In this document: one piece after another, positions 2,796-61,060 of the stretch
Numbering within the stretch: position 1 is the stretch's first letter
Layout: every line of letters starts with the position of its first letter
From: an uncultured Verrucomicrobiota bacterium
Lineage (GTDB): Bacteria; Verrucomicrobiota; Verrucomicrobiia; Limisphaerales; UBA9464
Reading direction: 5' to 3'
Assembly: GCA_903922605.1 (NCBI GenBank)
Contig: CAIXUG010000072.1
Location: forward strand, 73,432 to 137,431
DNA: 64,000 nt
Notes under the pieces: model-generated
Database searches by the model: none
What the model saw: only the letters and a program-made list of their open reading frames with translations
Told to the model about the DNA's origin: nothing
Position numbers and translations under genes: made by a program

Positions 2796-4575
2796 CGGCC
2801 GGATTGCACAGCGCATCGCGCAGACCGGACGCCCGTCGCACCTGGCGTCCGATGGCCTGGCGCAGGATGTCCTCATTGGCCCACAGCTCGATGGCCGACC
2901 GGGCCCGCGTCAATCCCGTGTAAACCAGCTCGCGGGTGAGCACCGGCGAGTCGCGCTCCGGCAGCACCAGCAACACGCGGTCGAACTCAGAGCCCTGGCT
3001 CTTGTGGATGGTCATGGCGAACACGGTCGCGTGCTCCGGCAGTCGTGCCGGTACGAAGGCGCGCACGCCGCCGGCCCCGTCGGCGTTGGCGAAAAATACC
3101 CGCAAGTGACCGCTCGCATCCGGCAGGGTGAGGCCCACATCGCCATTGAACAGTTTCGTGGCCGGGTCGTTGCGCGTCACGATCACGGGACGTCCCGCGT
3201 ACCAGGGGCCGCGACGGGCGATGAGCCCCGCGCGTTCCAGCAGCGTCTCGGCCAGTGTGTTGAGCGATTCCACGCCGTACGGACCGCGCCGTACCGCCGT
3301 CAGGAGCCGGAAGCGGTTGAACTGCGCCATCGCCGCCGCCGGATCGCGTTCCCGCACCACCGCCCCGTAGCCGTCGAGGATGCGCGTCCGCAACGCAGCG
3401 GACAGTTCGCCAGGTTTCGGGAGGGCCTGCCACAAGGCCGGTGAAGAGCGGAGCTGATCCATCACGGCCGCTTCATCGCCTGCGTTTACGGCCTGGCTCA
3501 ACGTGTGAATCTCCACGCCCGGAGCGAAGCGCCAGTTCTTCTGTAACTCCACCACACTGTCCGCCAAGGGTGACGCCGCGGAACTGCCGGCAGCCGCGCA
3601 AATTTCGCCGAGCACGTTGCCCGCCTCGACCGACGCGAGTTGGTCCTTGTCGCCGATGAGCACGATGCGTGCAGCGGTGGGAAGCGCGGCGAAGAGCTTC
3701 GCCATCAGCGCGAGGTCCACCATGCTCGCCTCATCCACGACCACGATGTCCACGGCCAGTGGGTTGGTGGCGTCATGCCGGAATCGTGGGGAATTGGGAA
3801 TCGGCCCCAGTAGCCGGTGCAGTGTGGTGGCCTCCTCGGGCAGCATGGCCTTCAGTGCGTCAGTGCAGGGCAATTGCCGCTTGGCCGCGCGCACAGACTC
3901 GGCAATGCGGGCGGCGGATTTGCCCGTGGGTGCCGCCAGGGCGATGCGGAGGGGACGTTCGCCCGCCTGTTCCAGCAGCGCGGCCAGCAACCACACCACG
4001 GTGCGGGTCTTGCCCGTCCCCGGTCCGCCGGTGATGACACTGAACGCCCGGGTCGCAGCGGTACGGACGGCGTGGCGTTGCCCATCGAATTCCTCGCCTT
4101 GCGCCGGAAACAGCCGCTGTAGGCTGGCCTGCAGCAGGGCTTCATCCACGGCGACCTGAAGCTGCGCCCGCCGGCGGATCGCCACCGCCAGGTCCGTCTC
4201 GTAGCGCCAGTAGCGATGGAGGTAGAGCCGGTTTGCCTCATCCAGCACCAGCGGCGTGAAGTCGCCGGGGCGCCCGACCGCGCCGCTGGCCCGGAGGGCT
4301 TTTCGCCAAGCGGTGAGGGTGGGCAGCCGCACCGAAGAATCCTCCAGATCGGAGGCCACGTCGCGCAGCCAGCGGCCGGCAACGGCGGCGAGGTCAAGGC
4401 AGGCATGACCGGCGGCGCGCTGGTGGCCCACCAGCGCGGCGGCGAGTTGCAATTCATCGCTGACCGGCGGCGACAATTCGACCACCACCCGCGCAAAGTG
4501 CCGGTCGAGGTCGGAGAAGCCAGTCAGCAGGATCGTCTTTCCATCGCTGGGGGCGCTGTGGCTGGCATTCCTCAT
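2770..4575 (-). CDS. recD: Exodeoxyribonuclease V alpha subunit RecD
   Basis: Walker A GGPGTGKTRTV, Walker B VVVDEASMVD, and helicase motif AMTIHKSQGSEFD. I prefer the start at ATG 4575 (MRNASH...); an upstream in-frame ATG at 4674 is possible. Confidence 0.85.
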   Translation of the reverse strand: MRNASHSAPSDGKTILLTGFSDLDRHFARVVVELSPPVSDELQLAAALVGHQRAAGHACLDLAAVAGRWLRDVASDLEDSSVRLPTLTAWRKALRASGAVGRPGDFTPLVLDEANRLYLHRYWRYETDLAVAIRRRAQLQVAVDEALLQASLQRLFPAQGEEFDGQRHAVRTAATRAFSVITGGPGTGKTRTVVWLLAALLEQAGERPLRIALAAPTGKSAARIAESVRAAKRQLPCTDALKAMLPEEATTLHRLLGPIPNSPRFRHDATNPLAVDIVVVDEASMVDLALMAKLFAALPTAARIVLIGDKDQLASVEAGNVLGEICAAAGSSAASPLADSVVELQKNWRFAPGVEIHTLSQAVNAGDEAAVMDQLRSSPALWQALPKPGELSAALRTRILDGYGAVVRERDPAAAMAQFNRFRLLTAVRRGPYGVESLNTLAETLLERAGLIARRGPWYAGRPVIVTRNDPATKLFNGDVGLTLPDASGHLRVFFANADGAGGVRAFVPARLPEHATVFAMTIHKSQGSEFDRVLLVLPERDSPVLTRELVYTGLTRARSAIELWANEDILRQAIGRQVRRASGLRDALCNPAATEPPSPA

Positions 4576-4825
4576 TTCAAAACGGTGGGGGTTGGCTGTC
4601 GAAGGCCCGGAAGGGTAGGGGCCGTAGGCACGGTGCGCTGCGCCGTCCCCGCCCTGTAGGGGTGGAAGAGGCATGCGGATGTCGTGGGCGTTCGTTCCGT
4701 CGCCTGACGCTGCGCTCGGCGACGGGGACGGCGCAGCGCGCCATCCCTACCTGTTTGCGGCGGTTGCCATGTGACGACGAAGCCCTCACTGCCTGTTTCT
4801 CGGTGGCGAACCGAATGGGCCTGGC

Positions 4826-13445: not shown

Positions 13446-13448
13446 TTC

Positions 13449-13515
13449 GGGGCGCGGACGTTCACGTCCGCGTGGTCGGGTTAGGTGCTTACGCGGACGT
13501 GACCGTCCGCGCCCC
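13449..13515. terminator. Long nested palindrome between convergent genes (candidate bidirectional terminator / REP-like element)
   Basis: 12-bp outer stem GGGGCGCGGACG/CGTCCGCGCCCC, 10-bp inner stem CACGTCCGCG/CGCGGACGTG, and a 19-nt apical loop. Confidence 0.5.
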
Positions 13516-13524
13516 GATGTTCGC

Positions 13525-14072: not shown

Positions 14073-14132
14073 AATCCTGCTCTTGCTCTTGATCGCAGCG
14101 AAGTGATTACGATTACGAGTAAGATCAGGATT
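14073..14132. repeat. Hexamer-periodic palindromic element, copy A
   Basis: Left arm AATCCTGCTCTTGCTCTTGATC pairs 18/22 with the reverse complement of right arm GATTACGATTACGAGTAAGATCAGGATT. Both arms have 6-nt periodicity. Confidence 0.55.
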
Positions 14133-14144
14133 AAGAAGAAGATG

Positions 14145-19125: not shown

Positions 19126-19397
19126 GGATTTCTGCAACGTTGCTGAACCGTAACAACCCCGCAAGTGCGGCTTGGGAATCAGAAGGGCTCAAACGCCGCC
19201 CGGCCGAATGGGACAGAGCTCCAAGCGAACCGTGCCCATCCGGTTTGTTGCCAAAGGAGCGCCGAGCACCCGCTTGGCCCGTTGGAAGCCCCGAGCGTTC
19301 AGGCCGAGCAGGGGCTCGGCGCTCCGCGATCGACTGGTTTTGTCAACAAACAGGATAGGCATGAAGCGAACACCGGAGCTGGCTTGCGGCCGAGGGT

Positions 19398-25667: not shown

Positions 25668-28400
25668 ATGGCGAACCAAGGTCTGCCGGTCTGGCTGCTT
25701 CAGGCCGACATCCTCCGCACGCTGACGGCGGGCAACCAACTCGTGCTGGTCGCTGCCACCGGCTCCGGCAAAACCACGCAGGTGCCCCAGATGCTCCTGG
25801 ATGCCGGGCTGGCCGGCGCCAAGCGCATCGTGGTGCTCCAGCCGCGTCGCGTGGCCGCCCGGACCGTGGCCGCCCGGGTCGCCTGGGAGCGGAAAGGCCG
25901 GCTGGGGGATGAGGTCGGCTATCAGGTGCGCTTTGAGGACCATCTCTCCGAGGCTTCGCGCCTGTGTTTTGTCACCGAGGGCATCCTGTTGCGCTGGTTG
26001 CAGAACGACCACGAACTGAGCGACATCGGTGTGGTGATCTTCGACGAATTCCACGAGCGGAACCTGCTGAGCGACGTTGCCCTCGCGCTGGTGAAACGGC
26101 TCCAGCAGACCACGCGGCCCGACCTGAAGATCGTGGTGATGTCGGCCACGCTGGAGGCCGAGCCGGTGGCGCGTTACCTGGCGGCTGGGCCTTCTCATGC
26201 TCTTGCTCCTGCTCTTGCTCTTGATCTTCCTCCTAGTCTGCCGGACGCCGTCGAGAGTAAGAGCACGAGCAAGAGCATGAGCAAGATGGGGGCTGAGCCG
26301 GAGGCCTGCCCGGTGCTTGTGTCCGAGGGGCGGACCTACCCGGTGTCGTTGAACTGGTCCCAGTACGGTGACGACCGGCCAGCTTCGGAACGGGCGGCGG
26401 AGGCAGTGGAGCGGCTCGTCCGTAACGGCGAACTGGGTGACATCCTCGTGTTCATGCCCGGCATGGGTGAGATCAACGCCACCATCAACGCGCTGCGGGC
26501 CGCGCGACTGGACGAGCGTTGCACCTTCATCCCGCTGCACGGCGATCTGGCACCGGACGACCAGGATCGGGCCTTCCAGCCGAGCGACGTGCGCAAGATC
26601 GTCGTGGCCACCAACGTGGCCGAGACCAGCGTCACCATCGACGGGGTCTGCCACGTGGTAGATGCCGGCTTGGCGCGTATTGCCCGTTACGATGCCGAGC
26701 GCGGCATCCAGACCTTGGCGGTGGAGGAAATCAGCCGCGCCAGTGCGGACCAGCGCGCCGGCCGGGCCGGGCGTACGGCACCGGGAACCTGCTGGCGCTT
26801 GTGGACGGAAAGCAACCACCTGAACCGTCCGGCCCGGAATACGCCAGAAATCCGCCGGGCGGACCTGGCCGAAACGGTCTTGCTGCTTCACTCATTGGGC
26901 ATCCGGCGGGCGGCGGAATTCGACTGGCTGGACCGGCCCGATACCGAAGCCGTGGAGCGCGCCGAACGCCTGCTGACCACCCTCGGTGCGTTGGTGCCGG
27001 TGGAGCAGGGCGGGGGATTGGCCGAGACCGGGTCGGACCTGACTCCCGTTGGCCGCCAGATGCTGCGTCTGCCGATGCACCCACGTTATTCGCGCATGCT
27101 GATCGAGGCGTCGCGTCGCGGGTGTGTGCCGGCGGCGGCGCAATGCGCGGCGCTGGTCAGCGGGCGCGACCTGCTCATGCGGGTGGGCCGCGATGATGGC
27201 CAGATGAAGGAGGCCCGGGAGACCTTTGAAGGCAGCACGCAGAGCGATTTTCACACGCTGATGCGGGCGCACCAGTTCGCGAAGCAGAGCCAGTTTGACC
27301 TGAATGCCTGCCGCCGCATGGGCATCCATGCGCAGACCGCCCGGCAGGTGGAGGACACCTTCCGCCAACTGCTCCAGATCGCCGAACGCGAACGGCTGCT
27401 GGAGGACGAGGAGGAGGGCGCAAAATCACCTGCCATTGGCAACCCGACCGATCCCGATGCGCTGGCGAAGTGCCTGCTCGCCGGCTTCATCGATCAGCTG
27501 GCCGCCCGCAAGGACACCGGCACCTTGGATTGCCTGCTCACCGAGAGCCGTACCGGCGCGCTGGTCCGGGAGAGTGTGGTCAGCACGCCCTTGTTGGTGG
27601 TCGCCAGCATTCGCGAGGTGGAGGGCCGGGGCGGTCGCATGACCTTGCTCAGCTTGGCCACGGCGGTGAAGCGCGAGTGGATCACGGAAATCTTTCCACA
27701 ACACCTCCAGTCGACGGTGGAGCATCTATTCGACCGCACGCATAAGCGCGTCGCGGCGATCCGGCAGGTGCGCTGCCTCGGGCTGGTCATCGGGCAGGAA
27801 CACCAGCGCGAAACCGATCCGGAAGCGGCGGGACGCACTTTGGCGGAAGCCTTTGCCAAGGGCTGGTTTGAGCTGCCCAACCTCACGCACGACGTGAAGC
27901 AGTTCATCGCCCGGGTGAACCTCGTCTGCGCCGCGCTGCCAGAACTGGATTTTCCGCGCTTCGACAGCCCGGCCCTGCTGGCGGCGCTGACCCGCGCCTT
28001 TACGGGCTTTACCCTGGTCAAGGAGGCGCAGGCCGCCGAACTGCGGCCCCATTTCCGGGCGCATCTCGTACCCGAAGAGCGGGGCTGGCTGGATGAGCTG
28101 CTGCCCCTGTCGATCCCGTGGCCGGATGGCCGCACGGTGAAGCTCACCTATCCCGAGCCGGGCCGCGATGCGGAGGATGGTCCCGCCTGGCCCACCGCCC
28201 AGGTAAAGCTGAACGATTGCTGGGCGCTCAAAGCGCATCCGGTCCTGGGCGAGGGCAAAGTGCCGGTGCGACTCTGCCTCCAGGCGCCCGATGGCAAGCG
28301 CCTGGATGCCACCACCGACTTTCCGGCCTGGAAAACAGCCGGTTACCCCAAGCTGAGGGCGGCCATCAAGGCGAAGTACGCGGGCTTTGCCTGGCCGTAA
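25668..28400 (+). CDS. hrpB: ATP-dependent DEAH-box RNA helicase HrpB (carries a 36-codon repeat-derived insertion)
   Basis: GSGKTTQVPQ, DEFHERN, MSATL, and TNVAETSVTIDGV. 910 aa. Confidence 0.9.
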   Translation: MANQGLPVWLLQADILRTLTAGNQLVLVAATGSGKTTQVPQMLLDAGLAGAKRIVVLQPRRVAARTVAARVAWERKGRLGDEVGYQVRFEDHLSEASRLCFVTEGILLRWLQNDHELSDIGVVIFDEFHERNLLSDVALALVKRLQQTTRPDLKIVVMSATLEAEPVARYLAAGPSHALAPALALDLPPSLPDAVESKSTSKSMSKMGAEPEACPVLVSEGRTYPVSLNWSQYGDDRPASERAAEAVERLVRNGELGDILVFMPGMGEINATINALRAARLDERCTFIPLHGDLAPDDQDRAFQPSDVRKIVVATNVAETSVTIDGVCHVVDAGLARIARYDAERGIQTLAVEEISRASADQRAGRAGRTAPGTCWRLWTESNHLNRPARNTPEIRRADLAETVLLLHSLGIRRAAEFDWLDRPDTEAVERAERLLTTLGALVPVEQGGGLAETGSDLTPVGRQMLRLPMHPRYSRMLIEASRRGCVPAAAQCAALVSGRDLLMRVGRDDGQMKEARETFEGSTQSDFHTLMRAHQFAKQSQFDLNACRRMGIHAQTARQVEDTFRQLLQIAERERLLEDEEEGAKSPAIGNPTDPDALAKCLLAGFIDQLAARKDTGTLDCLLTESRTGALVRESVVSTPLLVVASIREVEGRGGRMTLLSLATAVKREWITEIFPQHLQSTVEHLFDRTHKRVAAIRQVRCLGLVIGQEHQRETDPEAAGRTLAEAFAKGWFELPNLTHDVKQFIARVNLVCAALPELDFPRFDSPALLAALTRAFTGFTLVKEAQAAELRPHFRAHLVPEERGWLDELLPLSIPWPDGRTVKLTYPEPGRDAEDGPAWPTAQVKLNDCWALKAHPVLGEGKVPVRLCLQAPDGKRLDATTDFPAWKTAGYPKLRAAIKAKYAGFAWP
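26192..26299. repeat. Hexamer-periodic palindromic element, copy B, inserted in frame within hrpB
   Basis: Arms at 26194-26221 and 26253-26281 pair 26/28. The unit is 108 bp, flanked by GGCTGGGCC (26183-26191) and GGCTGAGCC (26291-26299). Confidence 0.65.
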
Positions 28401-32559: not shown

Positions 32560-32605
32560 GCGGTCCCGGAAATGCCGGCAGGACCACCCAAGCCTTTGGC
32601 AGTTT

Positions 32606-32682
32606 CTTAATCCTAATCTTAATCGTAATCATAATCACTTTTTCTCCTGCGATTACGATTACGATTAAGATTAGGATTAAGA
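32606..32682. repeat. Hexamer-periodic palindromic element, copy C (best preserved)
   Basis: (NTAATC)x5 left arm at 32606-32637, 13-nt loop, (GATTAN)x5 right arm at 32651-32682. The arms pair 31/32. Confidence 0.8.
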
Positions 32683-37703: not shown

Positions 37704-37776
37704 TCGTGCTCGTGCTCTTACTCCTGCTCGTTAACCGACGAAGAGAATAGATTACGAGCAAGAGCAGGATGAGAAG
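37704..37776. repeat. Hexamer-periodic palindromic element, copy D (degenerate)
   Basis: TCGTGC TCGTGC TCTTAC TCCTGC ... GATTAC GAGCAA GAGCAG GATGAG. The arms pair only about 18/27. It lies between convergent genes. Confidence 0.4.
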
Positions 37777-60895: not shown

Positions 60896-61060
60896 AGGCT
60901 GCCCGTCGCAGACGGGCCTCTGGAAGTAGCGCAGAATTGCATTCTGCCGTATCGCAGGTTTGCAACCTGCACCGGCAACGGGATTTCCCGAGTGCGTCCG
61001 ATTATCCCACCCCGTGCAGATTGAAAATCTGCGATACAGCAGGTTGCAAACCTGCGCTAC
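60896..61060. repeat. REP-like cluster: one GC hairpin plus two 47-nt double-hairpin units in inverted orientation
   Basis: The hairpins are GCAGAAT-TGC-ATTCTGC, GCAGGTT-TGC-AACCTGC, GCAGATT-GAA-AATCTGC and GCAGGTT-GCA-AACCTGC. Unit 61014-61060 matches the reverse complement of unit 60926-60972 at 39/47. Confidence 0.75.

What the first reader, a model, noticed from the sequence alone, without database searches (positions are those of the whole stretch)
26192..26299. Palindromic repeat inserted in frame inside the hrpB helicase core, with 9-bp flanking direct repeats
hrpB contains a 108-bp (36-codon) segment between helicase motif III (MSATL) and the following SEGRTYPV strand. The segment is a member of the hexamer-periodic palindrome family, and its arms pair 26/28. 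It is flanked by GGCTGGGCC (26183-26191) and GGCTGAGCC (26291-26299), exactly 108 nt apart, which looks like a target-site duplication. Removing the unit leaves ...ARYLAAGPEACPVLVSEGR... in frame. The insert encodes SHALAPALALDLPPSLPDAVESKSTSKSMSKMGAEP. This resembles the in-frame palindromic insertions known from Rickettsia (RPEs). It implies the element family is, or was, mobile and is tolerated in a surface loop of an essential-type enzyme fold.
Basis: partly seen in the sequence, partly recalled or inferred. Interest (0 to 1): 0.62.

Follow-up and report, generated by a model that had tools for sequence, protein, structure and literature searches.

The report
In-frame hexamer hairpin repeat in hrpB
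A 108-base hairpin-forming repeat built from six-base units sits in frame in a floppy linker of the HrpB helicase of one small group of Verrucomicrobia, and it belongs to a widespread, unexplained repeat family whose arms also wrap small Avd-like genes.

Summary
Window 26192-26299 is a 36-codon in-frame segment of hrpB that holds a strong hairpin with 31-nt arms, 90% complementary (fold z = -7). Each arm is a run of hexamers: (TCNTRM)n, a loop, then (KYANGA)n.

The segment is lineage-specific. Only four HrpB proteins carry it, and they form one clade. About 96 of 113 diverse HrpB proteins have a 15-17 residue linker at this position. A confident AlphaFold model (pLDDT 92) places the insert in a disordered loop between the two RecA domains. 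hrpB stays under strong purifying selection (dN/dS 0.04-0.09).

The genome holds 52 such hairpins, and this is the only convincing copy inside a gene.

The target-site-duplication reading fails. Other copies have no flank duplications, three filled/empty site comparisons show none, and both 9-mers encode linker residues also found in relatives without the insert.

Two new results:
- The same hexamer arms enclose a PF05635 (23S-rRNA-IVS/Avd-like) gene in this genome and in its relatives.
- The same hexamer hairpins occur in many phyla.

The insert therefore behaves like a Rickettsia palindromic element or an intragenic REP. It is instead a cargo-less member of an uncharacterised periodic foldback family. 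How that family spreads is unknown.

The parts
25668..28400 (+). hrpB (DEAH/RHA helicase HrpB), 910 aa, host gene of the insert
   Evidence: ORF. NCBIfam TIGR01970 E = 1e-162. The AF2 model's best PDB match is E. coli HrpB 6EUD, E = 2e-60. dN/dS outside the insert is 0.038 and 0.093.
26192..26299 (+).
   Evidence: It has no counterpart in nearly all of the best 150 50%-cluster representatives, whose matches restart at query residue ~212-217. It has no counterpart in any solved DEAH helicase. AF2 gives pLDDT below 50 for residues 184-204 and no secondary structure for 173-215.
26195..26236 (+). left arm: 7 hexamer units TCNTRM (TCATGC TCTTGC TCCTGC TCTTGC TCTTGA TCTTCC TCCTAG), read as (L/P/H)(A/D) dipeptides
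   Evidence: contig C72:99626-99717 = window 26195-26286.
26237..26256 (+). loop of the hairpin; unique sequence, unrelated to the loops of other copies
   Evidence: All-against-all BLAST of loops and flanks of the 52 copies finds no shared sequence.
26257..26286 (+). right arm: 5 hexamer units KYANGA (GTAAGA GCACGA GCAAGA GCATGA GCAAGA), read as S-(K/T/M) dipeptides
26183..26191 (+). left 9-mer GGCTGGGCC (codons for A-G-P); not a demonstrable target-site duplication
   Evidence: Insert-free relatives also read YLAAG.../YLADSG... at this position. The family-wide TSD test is negative.
26291..26299 (+). right 9-mer GGCTGAGCC (codons for A-E-P); native linker sequence
   Evidence: It is homologous to GGCGCGGAGCC (..DGAEPK..) in the insert-free orthologue of G007.
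14075..14136 (.). intergenic family copy (3/5 units)
   Evidence: It is present at the orthologous site in G004 and in metagenome locus L032.
32605..32682 (.). intergenic family copy, best preserved (32-nt stem, 97% complementary), TAA-type units
   Evidence: It is present in G004 with 12 nt fewer. It is absent in L032, where a different small hairpin occupies the site.
37704..37769 (.). intergenic family copy (4/3 units), poorly paired
   Evidence: It is present in G004 and L032.

Best explanation
The segment is a cargo-less copy of a hexamer-periodic foldback repeat: arms (TCNTRM)n and (KYANGA)n around a unique loop. It entered the DNA encoding the RecA1-RecA2 linker of HrpB once, in the common ancestor of a small Chthoniobacterales clade. 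It has been carried since as a translated passenger.

Shown:
- It is lineage-specific.
- It sits in a disordered surface linker of an otherwise confidently folded helicase.
- The host gene stays under strong purifying selection.
- The insert has stayed open and in frame in four lineages while its length changed.
- Length changes are mainly gains and losses of whole hexamers (two codons), which cannot shift the frame.
- The arms are read in the one mirrored pair of frames that avoids the TAA/TGA words of the units.
- The same arms occur at 51 other, intergenic sites in the genome, and they enclose a PF05635 (23S-rRNA-IVS/Avd-like four-helix-bundle) gene.

Inferred:
- The short hairpins are non-autonomous relatives of that PF05635 cassette.
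- Spread happened in the G000/G004/L032 lineage.
- The insert is neutral or nearly so for HrpB.

The way copies are made is unknown. There is no target-site duplication, no conserved ends beyond the arms, and no linked transposase.
For: Lineage specificity:
- Same-genus genomes G002, G003, G008 and G009 read YLSDDDETPAPML, with no insert.
- Only P0001-P0004 carry the hexamer insert, and they form a clade with support 0.987 when the loop is masked.
- The MSATL-SEGR spacing is 15-17 aa in 96 of 113 HrpB proteins and 56 aa here.

Same site and same codon phase in L032, but with TAA-type units (LNRNPNLNLNP...SKLTIKSKIK).

G000 against G004: left arm -1 hexamer, right arm -2 hexamers, loop +3 nt.

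Structure: AF2 pLDDT 92.2, pTM 0.86. The only low-confidence segments are 184-204 and 587-591. The insert lies between helix 164-172 and strand 216-219. The best PDB match is HrpB 6EUD. In PDB alignments the insert falls between HrpA residues 246 and 248.

Selection: dN/dS 0.038 at dS 0.34, and 0.093 at dS 0.68.

Family:
- 52 copies. T, C and T of each unit are 98-99% invariant. Variable positions covary between arms: N 57% against 32%, R 83% against 49%, M 82% against 47%.
- Abundance is patchy: 81 and 58 pattern hits in G000 and G004, 2-9 in five other relatives, 0 in 24, and 0 for the control pattern.
- Other 'inside ORF' cases are spurious ORFs or over-extended N-termini.

PF05635 link:
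- All 8 PF05635 genes of G000 lie between inverted arms of 6-8-nt tandem units. The gene at C1:78108-78506 has TCTTAATC.../GATTAAGA... arms.
- Its orthologues in G004, G009, G006, G001, G023, G029 and G024 keep hexamer arms.
- In 8 genomes of other phyla, 22 of 30 PF05635 genes have arms of 18 nt or more, including hexamer GATTAN/TGCTCG types.
Against: - No copying mechanism is identified.
- Loops and flanks of the 52 copies share nothing. Whole-element copy-paste is therefore not demonstrable, although the copies are old enough (dS at least 0.34-0.68) for loops to have diverged beyond recognition.
- The link to PF05635 is by shared arm type and co-occurrence only. No PF05635 gene lies within 8 kb of 120 cargo-less hairpins in other genomes.
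- Hairpin strength differs among the orthologous inserts: z = -7.0 in G000, -3.5 to -4.0 in G004, and only -1.6 in L032. Pairing is therefore not uniformly maintained. The near-perfect stem in G000 may reflect recent unit turnover or an unrecognised function.
- Translation of the insert is inferred from frame conservation.
Confidence: 0.72

Rival explanations
1. Classical cut- or copy-and-paste MITE. The arms act as terminal inverted repeats for an IS-type transposase, for example IS4-like. The insertion into hrpB generated the 9-bp (up to 13-bp) direct repeat GGCTGGGCC/GGCTGAGCC as a target-site duplication.
For: The 9-mers match 8/9 and are exactly 108 nt apart. Extended, TGGCGGCTGGGCC and TGGGGGCTGAGCC match 11/13. 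Only about 1.8% of shuffled flank pairs reach 9 with one mismatch or fewer. Earlier notes of this scan describe IS4-type MITEs with hexamer-repeat cores and 10-11-bp duplications in other genomes; these notes are unchecked leads.
Against: - Across the family there is no excess of flank direct repeats: mean 6.29 against 6.11 +/- 0.14, and 1.9% against 1.8% reach 9 or more.
- Complementarity does not extend beyond the arms: 5.7 of 20 positions.
- Flanks carry no conserved sequence or tags.
- Three G004-filled/G000-empty sites show non-homologous filler and no duplication.
- Both 9-mers encode residues present in insert-free relatives: YLAAG... in G012 and ...DGAEPK in G007.
- The five Y1 transposase loci are not flanked by hexamer hairpins.
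Confidence: 0.08
2. The hairpin is retained because it does something. At the RNA level it could be an RNase III processing site, a translational pause or an mRNA stability element inside hrpB, like the processed stems of 23S rRNA intervening sequences. At the DNA level it could be a binding site for a protein that reads the 6-nt period. On this reading it is not a neutral passenger.
For: - The T, C and T positions are 98-99% invariant in 254 units of copies old enough to have diverged elsewhere.
- The same two unit flavours recur in many phyla with GC content from 35% to 64%.
- The arms covary.
- The stem is still near-perfect in G000 at dS 0.34 from G004.
- Arms and PF05635 subfamily co-inherit.
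Against: - The orthologous insert in L032 barely folds (z = -1.6). The in-frame copy in a Lentimonas permease does not fold at all (z = +0.65).
- Most HrpB proteins, including congeners, do without the insert.
- Obligatory mRNA cleavage at the stem is hard to reconcile with dN/dS of 0.04 downstream.
- There is no Rfam match.
Confidence: 0.15
3. Local origin. The linker grew by slippage of a dipeptide-coding hexamer and a nearby fold-back (template-switch) duplication, independently of the dispersed family.
For: The linker is length-variable in this order (25-65 aa between MSATL and SEGR), and several long versions are not hairpins: L003 z = 0.55, L009 z = -0.08, P0039 z = 0.05. Unit-number changes by slippage are seen directly between G000 and G004.
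Against: - The units are the exact family units found at 51 other loci and around a PF05635 gene.
- The insert exists only in the lineage where the family is abundant.
- In another family (G020) the same linker holds a hairpin made of that genome's own octamer units. This points to repeated acquisition, not to coding-driven growth.
Confidence: 0.05

Closest known systems
Rickettsia palindromic elements (RPEs; Ogata et al., as summarised in PMC10969869 and PMC3733652)
   Same: A dispersed palindromic repeat inserted in frame in a conserved enzyme gene. It is translated as an extra surface segment and is compatible with fold and function.
   Different: RPE copies share a full-length consensus and a conserved peptide, and nearly half lie inside ORFs. 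Here only the periodic arms are shared and the loops are unique. Units vary copy by copy, and 1 of 52 copies is intragenic. The phylum differs too.
Intragenic REPs of the GTAG/CGTC super-families (Di Nocera et al. 2013, PMC3733652)
   Same: Mostly intergenic stem-loop repeats, with a minority lying entirely within ORFs. Many of those ORFs are replication and repair genes, and recB of two Xanthomonas species is hit at about the same site. The authors propose tolerance in flexible linkers.
   Different: There is no GTAG or CGTC tag and no RAYT association. The arms are 18-48 nt tandem hexamer arrays, not a 20-40-bp unit.
23S rRNA intervening sequences and free-standing PF05635 ('23S rRNA IVS protein', Avd-like; PMC10053308) cassettes
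   Same: A long inverted-repeat stem that may enclose a PF05635 ORF or nothing, inserted into a conserved, highly expressed gene without destroying it. In this genome the same hexamer arms enclose a PF05635 gene.
   Different: The host here is a protein-coding gene and the element is translated, whereas an IVS is cut out of RNA. RNase III processing was not tested. The association of periodic arms with PF05635 was seen in these data. I found no paper describing it.
Paired tandem-repeat sites of Geobacter metallireducens (classes 1-3, Aklujkar et al. 2009, PMC2700814)
   Same: Pairs of sites on opposite strands, each made of 3-5 tandem 7-9-nt units, at variable distance. There are tens of copies per genome and the function is unknown. 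The authors guessed that they bind a global regulator.
   Different: The units here are hexamers of another sequence. An intragenic in-frame copy was not described for those paired classes.
Bacterial MITEs (PMC10969869)
   Same: A short, non-coding, inverted-repeat element with many copies that occasionally makes in-frame fusions.
   Different: No target-site duplication, no IS-derived ends, and no parent IS identified.

Membership tests
Rickettsia palindromic elements (RPE) | Copies share a full-length consensus sequence and encode a conserved peptide | tested here: not met
   Loops and flanks of the 52 copies share no similarity. Orthologous inserts encode LAPALALDL...SKSTSKSMSK against LNRNPNLNLNP...SKLTIKSKIK.
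Rickettsia palindromic elements (RPE) | High fraction of copies inserted in frame in ORFs | tested here: not met
   1 of 52 in this genome and 1 of 130 in other genomes.
Rickettsia palindromic elements (RPE) | Insert lies on the protein surface and leaves the fold intact | tested here: met
   AF2 pLDDT 92; the insert is a disordered loop between the RecA domains. dN/dS is 0.04-0.09.
REP / BIME (GTAG or CGTC super-families) | Terminal GTAG or CGTC tetranucleotide tag | tested here: not met
   GTAG is found in 2 and 0 of 52 flanks, which is background level.
REP / BIME (GTAG or CGTC super-families) | RAYT (Y1 transposase) genes flanked by the repeat | tested here: not met
   Five PF01797 loci exist; none is flanked by hexamer hairpins.
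MITE | Target-site duplication at each copy | tested here: not met
   Flank direct repeats equal the shuffled control. Three filled/empty pairs show no duplication.
MITE | Ends derived from a full-length IS in the same or related genomes | not tested
   Only Y1 transposases were checked. No search was made for an IS with hexamer-array ends.
PF05635 / 23S-IVS-type foldback cassette | Long inverted-repeat stem that can enclose a PF05635 ORF | tested here: met
   This holds for the family, not for this copy, whose loop is 20 nt. Hexamer arms enclose the PF05635 gene at C1:78108-78506 and its orthologues.
PF05635 / 23S-IVS-type foldback cassette | Stem processed by RNase III in the host transcript | not testable with these tools
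Paired tandem-repeat sites (Geobacter type) | Two arrays of 3 or more tandem short units on opposite strands at variable spacing, tens of copies per genome | tested here: met
   3-8 units per arm, loops of 14-55 nt, 52 copies. Definition taken from PMC2700814.
HrpB (DEAH/RHA helicase), host gene | Full-length HrpB architecture including the HrpB_C domain | tested here: met
   TIGR01970 E = 1e-162, 543.2 bits against a curated cut-off of 546.15; the score is split by the insert. Homologues carry PF08482. Foldseek top hit is 6EUD.

The most novel reading that the evidence does not exclude
On this reading, the periodic arms are the cis-sites of the PF05635 (Avd-like four-helix-bundle) protein family. 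Arms and protein together would form one cross-phylum class of foldback elements. This would be the same class that appears as 23S rRNA intervening sequences. Its cargo-less hairpins would colonise intergenic DNA and, rarely, protein-coding linkers. The hrpB insert would then be a protein-gene counterpart of an rRNA IVS. The 6-nt (two-codon) unit is what would allow such an element to persist and keep changing length inside a reading frame.
Probability: 0.3. Interest if true: 0.8.

Novelty: new variant of a known kind. Interest (0 to 1): 0.6.

Why it matters
In-frame palindromic repeats in enzymes are usually quoted as a Rickettsia curiosity, with scattered REP cases elsewhere. This case shows the same outcome in Verrucomicrobiota with a different kind of repeat.

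The arms of this repeat are arrays of two-codon units, so slippage can never break the frame. The finding also ties the repeat to two unexplained things. One is the paired tandem-repeat hairpins noted in several phyla. The other is the PF05635/23S-IVS gene family.

Two features make the system experimentally approachable. There is a dated natural series: no insert, TAA-type insert, TGC-type insert. Cultured carriers of the repeat family also exist, namely Chthoniobacter flavus Ellin428, Melioribacter roseus and Stygiobacter electus.

Tried and rejected
1. Target-site duplication was tested in three ways: across the family, on three filled/empty site pairs, and against insert-free linkers. I rejected it.
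2. REP/RAYT membership was rejected. The flanks carry no tags, and the Y1 genes are not flanked by the hairpins.
3. A larger composite element was rejected, because flanks and loops share no sequence.
4. A known RNA family was ruled out. Rfam gives nothing at gathering scores and only generic hairpin (miRNA) models below threshold.
5. A literature search for the hexamer strings returned only unrelated primers.
6. The first AlphaFold run used 29 close homologues and was too poor to use (pLDDT 58). It was replaced by a run with 113 sequences.
8. tblastn with PF05635 proteins against the 120 eight-kb loci around cargo-less hairpins gave no hits.
9. Other long HrpB linkers were tested for hairpins. 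G021 (L003), G011 (L009) and the P0039 clade are not hairpins. Recurrent hairpin colonisation of this linker therefore rests on two cases: this clade and G020.
Full report
**What is in the sequence**

hrpB is the ORF 25668-28400(+), 910 aa. It matches NCBIfam HrpB (TIGR01970, E = 1e-162), and the match breaks exactly at the segment in question.

Between motif III (MSATL, residues 158-162) and the SEGRTYPV strand lie 56 residues. Of these, S176-P211 are encoded by 26192-26299.

The segment holds an inverted repeat with arms 26194-26224 and 26251-26281, 31 nt each and 90% complementary. Several alternative registers exist because each arm is a tandem hexamer array. As RNA it folds at -75.4 kcal/mol, with z = -7.0 and no shuffle out of 200 as stable.

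Removing the unit keeps the frame.

**The repeat family**

The arms are (TCNTRM)n on the left and (KYANGA)n on the right. A relaxed scan of the 5.3-Mb, 64% GC genome finds 52 such hairpins. Each has 3-8 units per arm and a loop of 14-55 nt. A control pattern gives zero hits in 31 genomes.

- Positions T, C and T of the unit are 98-99% invariant over 254 units.
- The variable positions agree between the two arms of a copy far more than between copies: N 57% against 32 +/- 3%, R 83% against 49%, M 82% against 47%.
- Loops and flanks share nothing among copies.
- There is no GTAG or CGTC tag.
- The five Y1-transposase loci of the genome are not flanked by these hairpins.
- Rfam has no matching family.

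With crude gene calls, 45 or more copies are intergenic. Every apparent 'inside an ORF' case other than hrpB is one of two things. Some are ORFs without any Pfam match whose sequence looks like antisense translation. The others are ORFs over-extended upstream of the real start. The hrpB copy is therefore the only convincing intragenic copy, 1 of 52.

**Is the insert lineage-specific?**

Yes. In 31 related genomes the HrpB match usually splits at query residues ~172/213.

- Same-genus genomes G002, G003, G008 and G009 read YLSDDDETPAPML at this point.
- Among the closest proteins in a 5.8-billion-protein collection, only P0001 (this window), P0002 (G004, 97% identity), P0003 and P0004 (85%) carry a hexamer insert.
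- With the loop masked, these four form a clade with support 0.987.
- In 113 HrpB proteins, including about 100 representatives of 50%-identity clusters, the MSATL-SEGR spacing is 15-17 aa in 96 of them. It is 21 aa in the insert-free close relatives of this group. It is 51-64 aa only in the three insert carriers included in that alignment.
- No solved DEAH/RHA helicase has residues here. The alignment jumps from E. coli HrpA residue 246 to 248.

**History of the insert**

The DNA of P0003 (locus L032) has the element at the same site and in the same codon phase. Its units are mostly TAA-type, reading TCTTAA TCGTAA TCCTAA ... GATTAA GAGCAA GATTAA. G000 has TGC-type units instead.

G004 differs from G000 by -1 hexamer in the left arm, -2 hexamers in the right arm and +3 nt in the loop. 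The three other window copies show the same kind of unit gain and loss between G000 and G004. One insertion in the clade's ancestor, followed by unit turnover, is the parsimonious reading.

Outside the insert, hrpB has dN/dS 0.038 against G004 (dS 0.34) and 0.093 against L032 (dS 0.68). The gene is functional with its passenger.

Hairpin strength is not uniform: z = -7.0 in G000, -3.5 to -4.0 in G004, and -1.6 in L032. I therefore do not claim that pairing is selected inside the gene.

**Where it sits in the protein**

An AlphaFold model built on 29 close homologues was unusable (pLDDT 58). A model built on 113 diverse sequences is confident, with pLDDT 92.2 and pTM 0.86.

- Its only low-confidence stretches are residues 184-204 and 587-591.
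- Residues 173-215 have no secondary structure. They lie between the last RecA1 helix (164-172) and the first RecA2 strand (216-219).
- Its best PDB match is E. coli HrpB 6EUD (E = 2e-60).

The insert is a disordered excursion at the inter-domain junction. 'Surface loop' is right. 'Core' is only topologically true.

**The target-site-duplication claim**

- Across the 52 copies, the best flank direct repeat (one mismatch or fewer) averages 6.29 nt, against 6.11 +/- 0.14 for shuffled left/right pairings. Only the hrpB copy reaches 9. The fraction reaching 9 or more (1.9%) equals the control (1.8%).
- Complementarity does not continue beyond the arms.
- I found three sites where G004 has a hairpin and G000 does not (L034, L043, L052). 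The conserved flanks are separated by unrelated filler, and in one case by a different small hairpin. There is no duplication.
- Insert-free relatives already read YLAAG... (G012) on the left and ...DGAEPK (G007) on the right. Both 9-mers are therefore native linker codons (A-G-P and A-E-P) that happen to resemble each other.

I reject the duplication as evidence of transposition.

**What the family is related to**

Following a lead from earlier notes of this scan, I searched the genome for PF05635, the '23S rRNA intervening sequence protein'. It is a four-helix-bundle family resembling the DGR accessory protein Avd (PMC10053308).

- All eight PF05635 genes of this genome lie between inverted arms made of tandem 6-8-nt units, and each gene has its own unit.
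- The gene at C1:78108-78506 has arms TCTTAATCTTAATCCTAATC... and ...GATTAAGATTATGATTAAGA. This is the hrpB family.
- Its orthologues keep hexamer arms in G004, G009, G006, G001, G023, G029 and G024. In the same-genus genomes G004, G009 and G001 the upstream flank is homologous to that of G000, so the locus is syntenic there. A more distant paralogue has heptamer arms.

The short hairpins therefore look like cargo-less relatives of a PF05635 foldback cassette. Their abundance is lineage-specific: 81 and 58 pattern hits in G000 and G004, 2-9 in five relatives, and 0 in 24.

**Breadth**

The organisms are:

- many Verrucomicrobiota (Akkermansia, Chthoniobacter flavus Ellin428, Opitutales, Limisphaerales)
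- Planctomycetota, Lentisphaerae and Kiritimatiellia
- Desulfobacterota
- Bacteroidota
- Ignavibacteriota (Melioribacter roseus, Stygiobacter electus)
- Acidobacteriota
- Hydrogenedentes
- Saccharimonadales

The same TAA and TGC unit flavours appear at GC contents from 35% to 64%.

Eight such genomes from other phyla all encode PF05635 genes (1-15 each). By comparison, 1 of 14 control genomes does. Of the 30 genes inspected, 22 have flanking inverted arms of 18 nt or more. Many arms are periodic, including hexamer GATTAN and TGCTCG types and the heptamer TCAGTRA type.

Among 130 hairpins in those loci, one more is truly intragenic and in frame. It lies in the central loop of an ArsP_1 permease of a Lentimonas MAG, although it no longer folds.

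In G020, a different family of the same order, the same HrpB linker holds a hairpin made of that genome's own octamer units (GGGAAAGY, z = -3.5). The same units form a hairpin elsewhere in that genome (z = -5.3). Other long HrpB linkers are not hairpins.

**Comparison with what is known**

- In-frame palindromic repeats are known from Rickettsia (RPEs).
- Less famously, intragenic REPs occur in several proteobacteria. Many lie in replication and repair genes, and recB of two Xanthomonas species is hit at about the same site (PMC3733652; PMC10969869).
- Paired tandem-repeat sites were noted without explanation in Geobacter metallireducens (PMC2700814).

The present element works like an RPE or an intragenic REP but fails their membership tests. 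By architecture it belongs with the paired tandem-repeat foldbacks and, by its arms, with PF05635 cassettes. I found no paper describing the arm-PF05635 association or these hexamer strings. That is absence in the searched library only.

**Verdict**

This is a real, lineage-specific, in-frame copy of a periodic foldback repeat. It is tolerated in a disordered inter-domain linker of a functional HrpB. Its target-site-duplication evidence is not. Mobility remains an inference without a mechanism. The most interesting open point lies beyond the 108 nt: what reads or makes the 6-nt period, and whether PF05635 proteins are involved.

Noticed in passing
G000 contigs C14:8977-9279, C72:206410-206724 (outside the window), C18:46154-46471, C1:78108-78506, C16:127491-127781, C23:37981-38289, C16:43931-44230, C17:35309-35602: All eight PF05635 (23S rRNA IVS protein / Avd-like) genes of this genome are enclosed by inverted arms built from tandem 6-8-nt units. 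Each gene has a different unit (GGAGACA, GCCAGTGA, GGAGATG, TCTTAA, GAATTAG, CGTAAAT, GCGAACA ...).
   Followed up: partly
L067:3618-3700 (Lentimonas sp. MAG, JBLHTV010000073.1), ORF 3139-4308: A second in-frame hexamer-array insert (…LSPNLNPNLNLNPNLNPNP…SKLTSMSMIK…) lies in the central loop of an ArsP_1 (PF03773) permease. The two arrays no longer fold (z = +0.65).
   Followed up: partly
L005 / L175 (G020:C104:57280-57480), same HrpB linker: A different family of the same order carries an octamer-unit (GGGAAAGY) hairpin in the same RecA1-RecA2 linker. The same units form a hairpin at G020:C172:21780-21990 and a one-armed array at G020:C91.
   Followed up: partly
window 32605-32682 against L032:16926-17233; G004 locus L034 against G000 C72:179964-180000: Where one genome has a hexamer hairpin, the orthologous intergenic site in a relative sometimes holds a different, small GC-rich hairpin. 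Examples are CGCGCAA-AGGG-TTGCGCG and CCGGC-TGCCC-GCCGG. This looks as if hairpins replace hairpins downstream of genes.
   Followed up: no
window 13447-13517, 4624-4750, 19256-19325, 60949-61060: Other strong inverted repeats unrelated to the hexamer family (27-nt arms 96%, 28-nt arms 89%, 24-nt arms 88%, 22-nt arms 95%), listed.
   Followed up: no
P0033/P0039 clade of HrpB (L223), same linker: A large metagenomic clade (67% identity) has a 24-29 residue Ala/Pro/Val-rich extension in the same linker. Its DNA is not a hairpin (z = 0.05), so the linker is generally permissive to length growth.
   Followed up: yes
L150, L167 (Chthoniobacter flavus Ellin428), L166 (Stygiobacter electus), L079 (Melioribacter roseus): Cultured or named species carry strict hexamer hairpins of this family and would allow experiments.
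   Followed up: no
G000 C1:78063-78107: The left hexamer arm of the PF05635 cassette is open in frame with the gene (LVLNLNPNLNLNP before the GTG start). This is the same reading of the units as in the HrpB insert of P0003.
   Followed up: no
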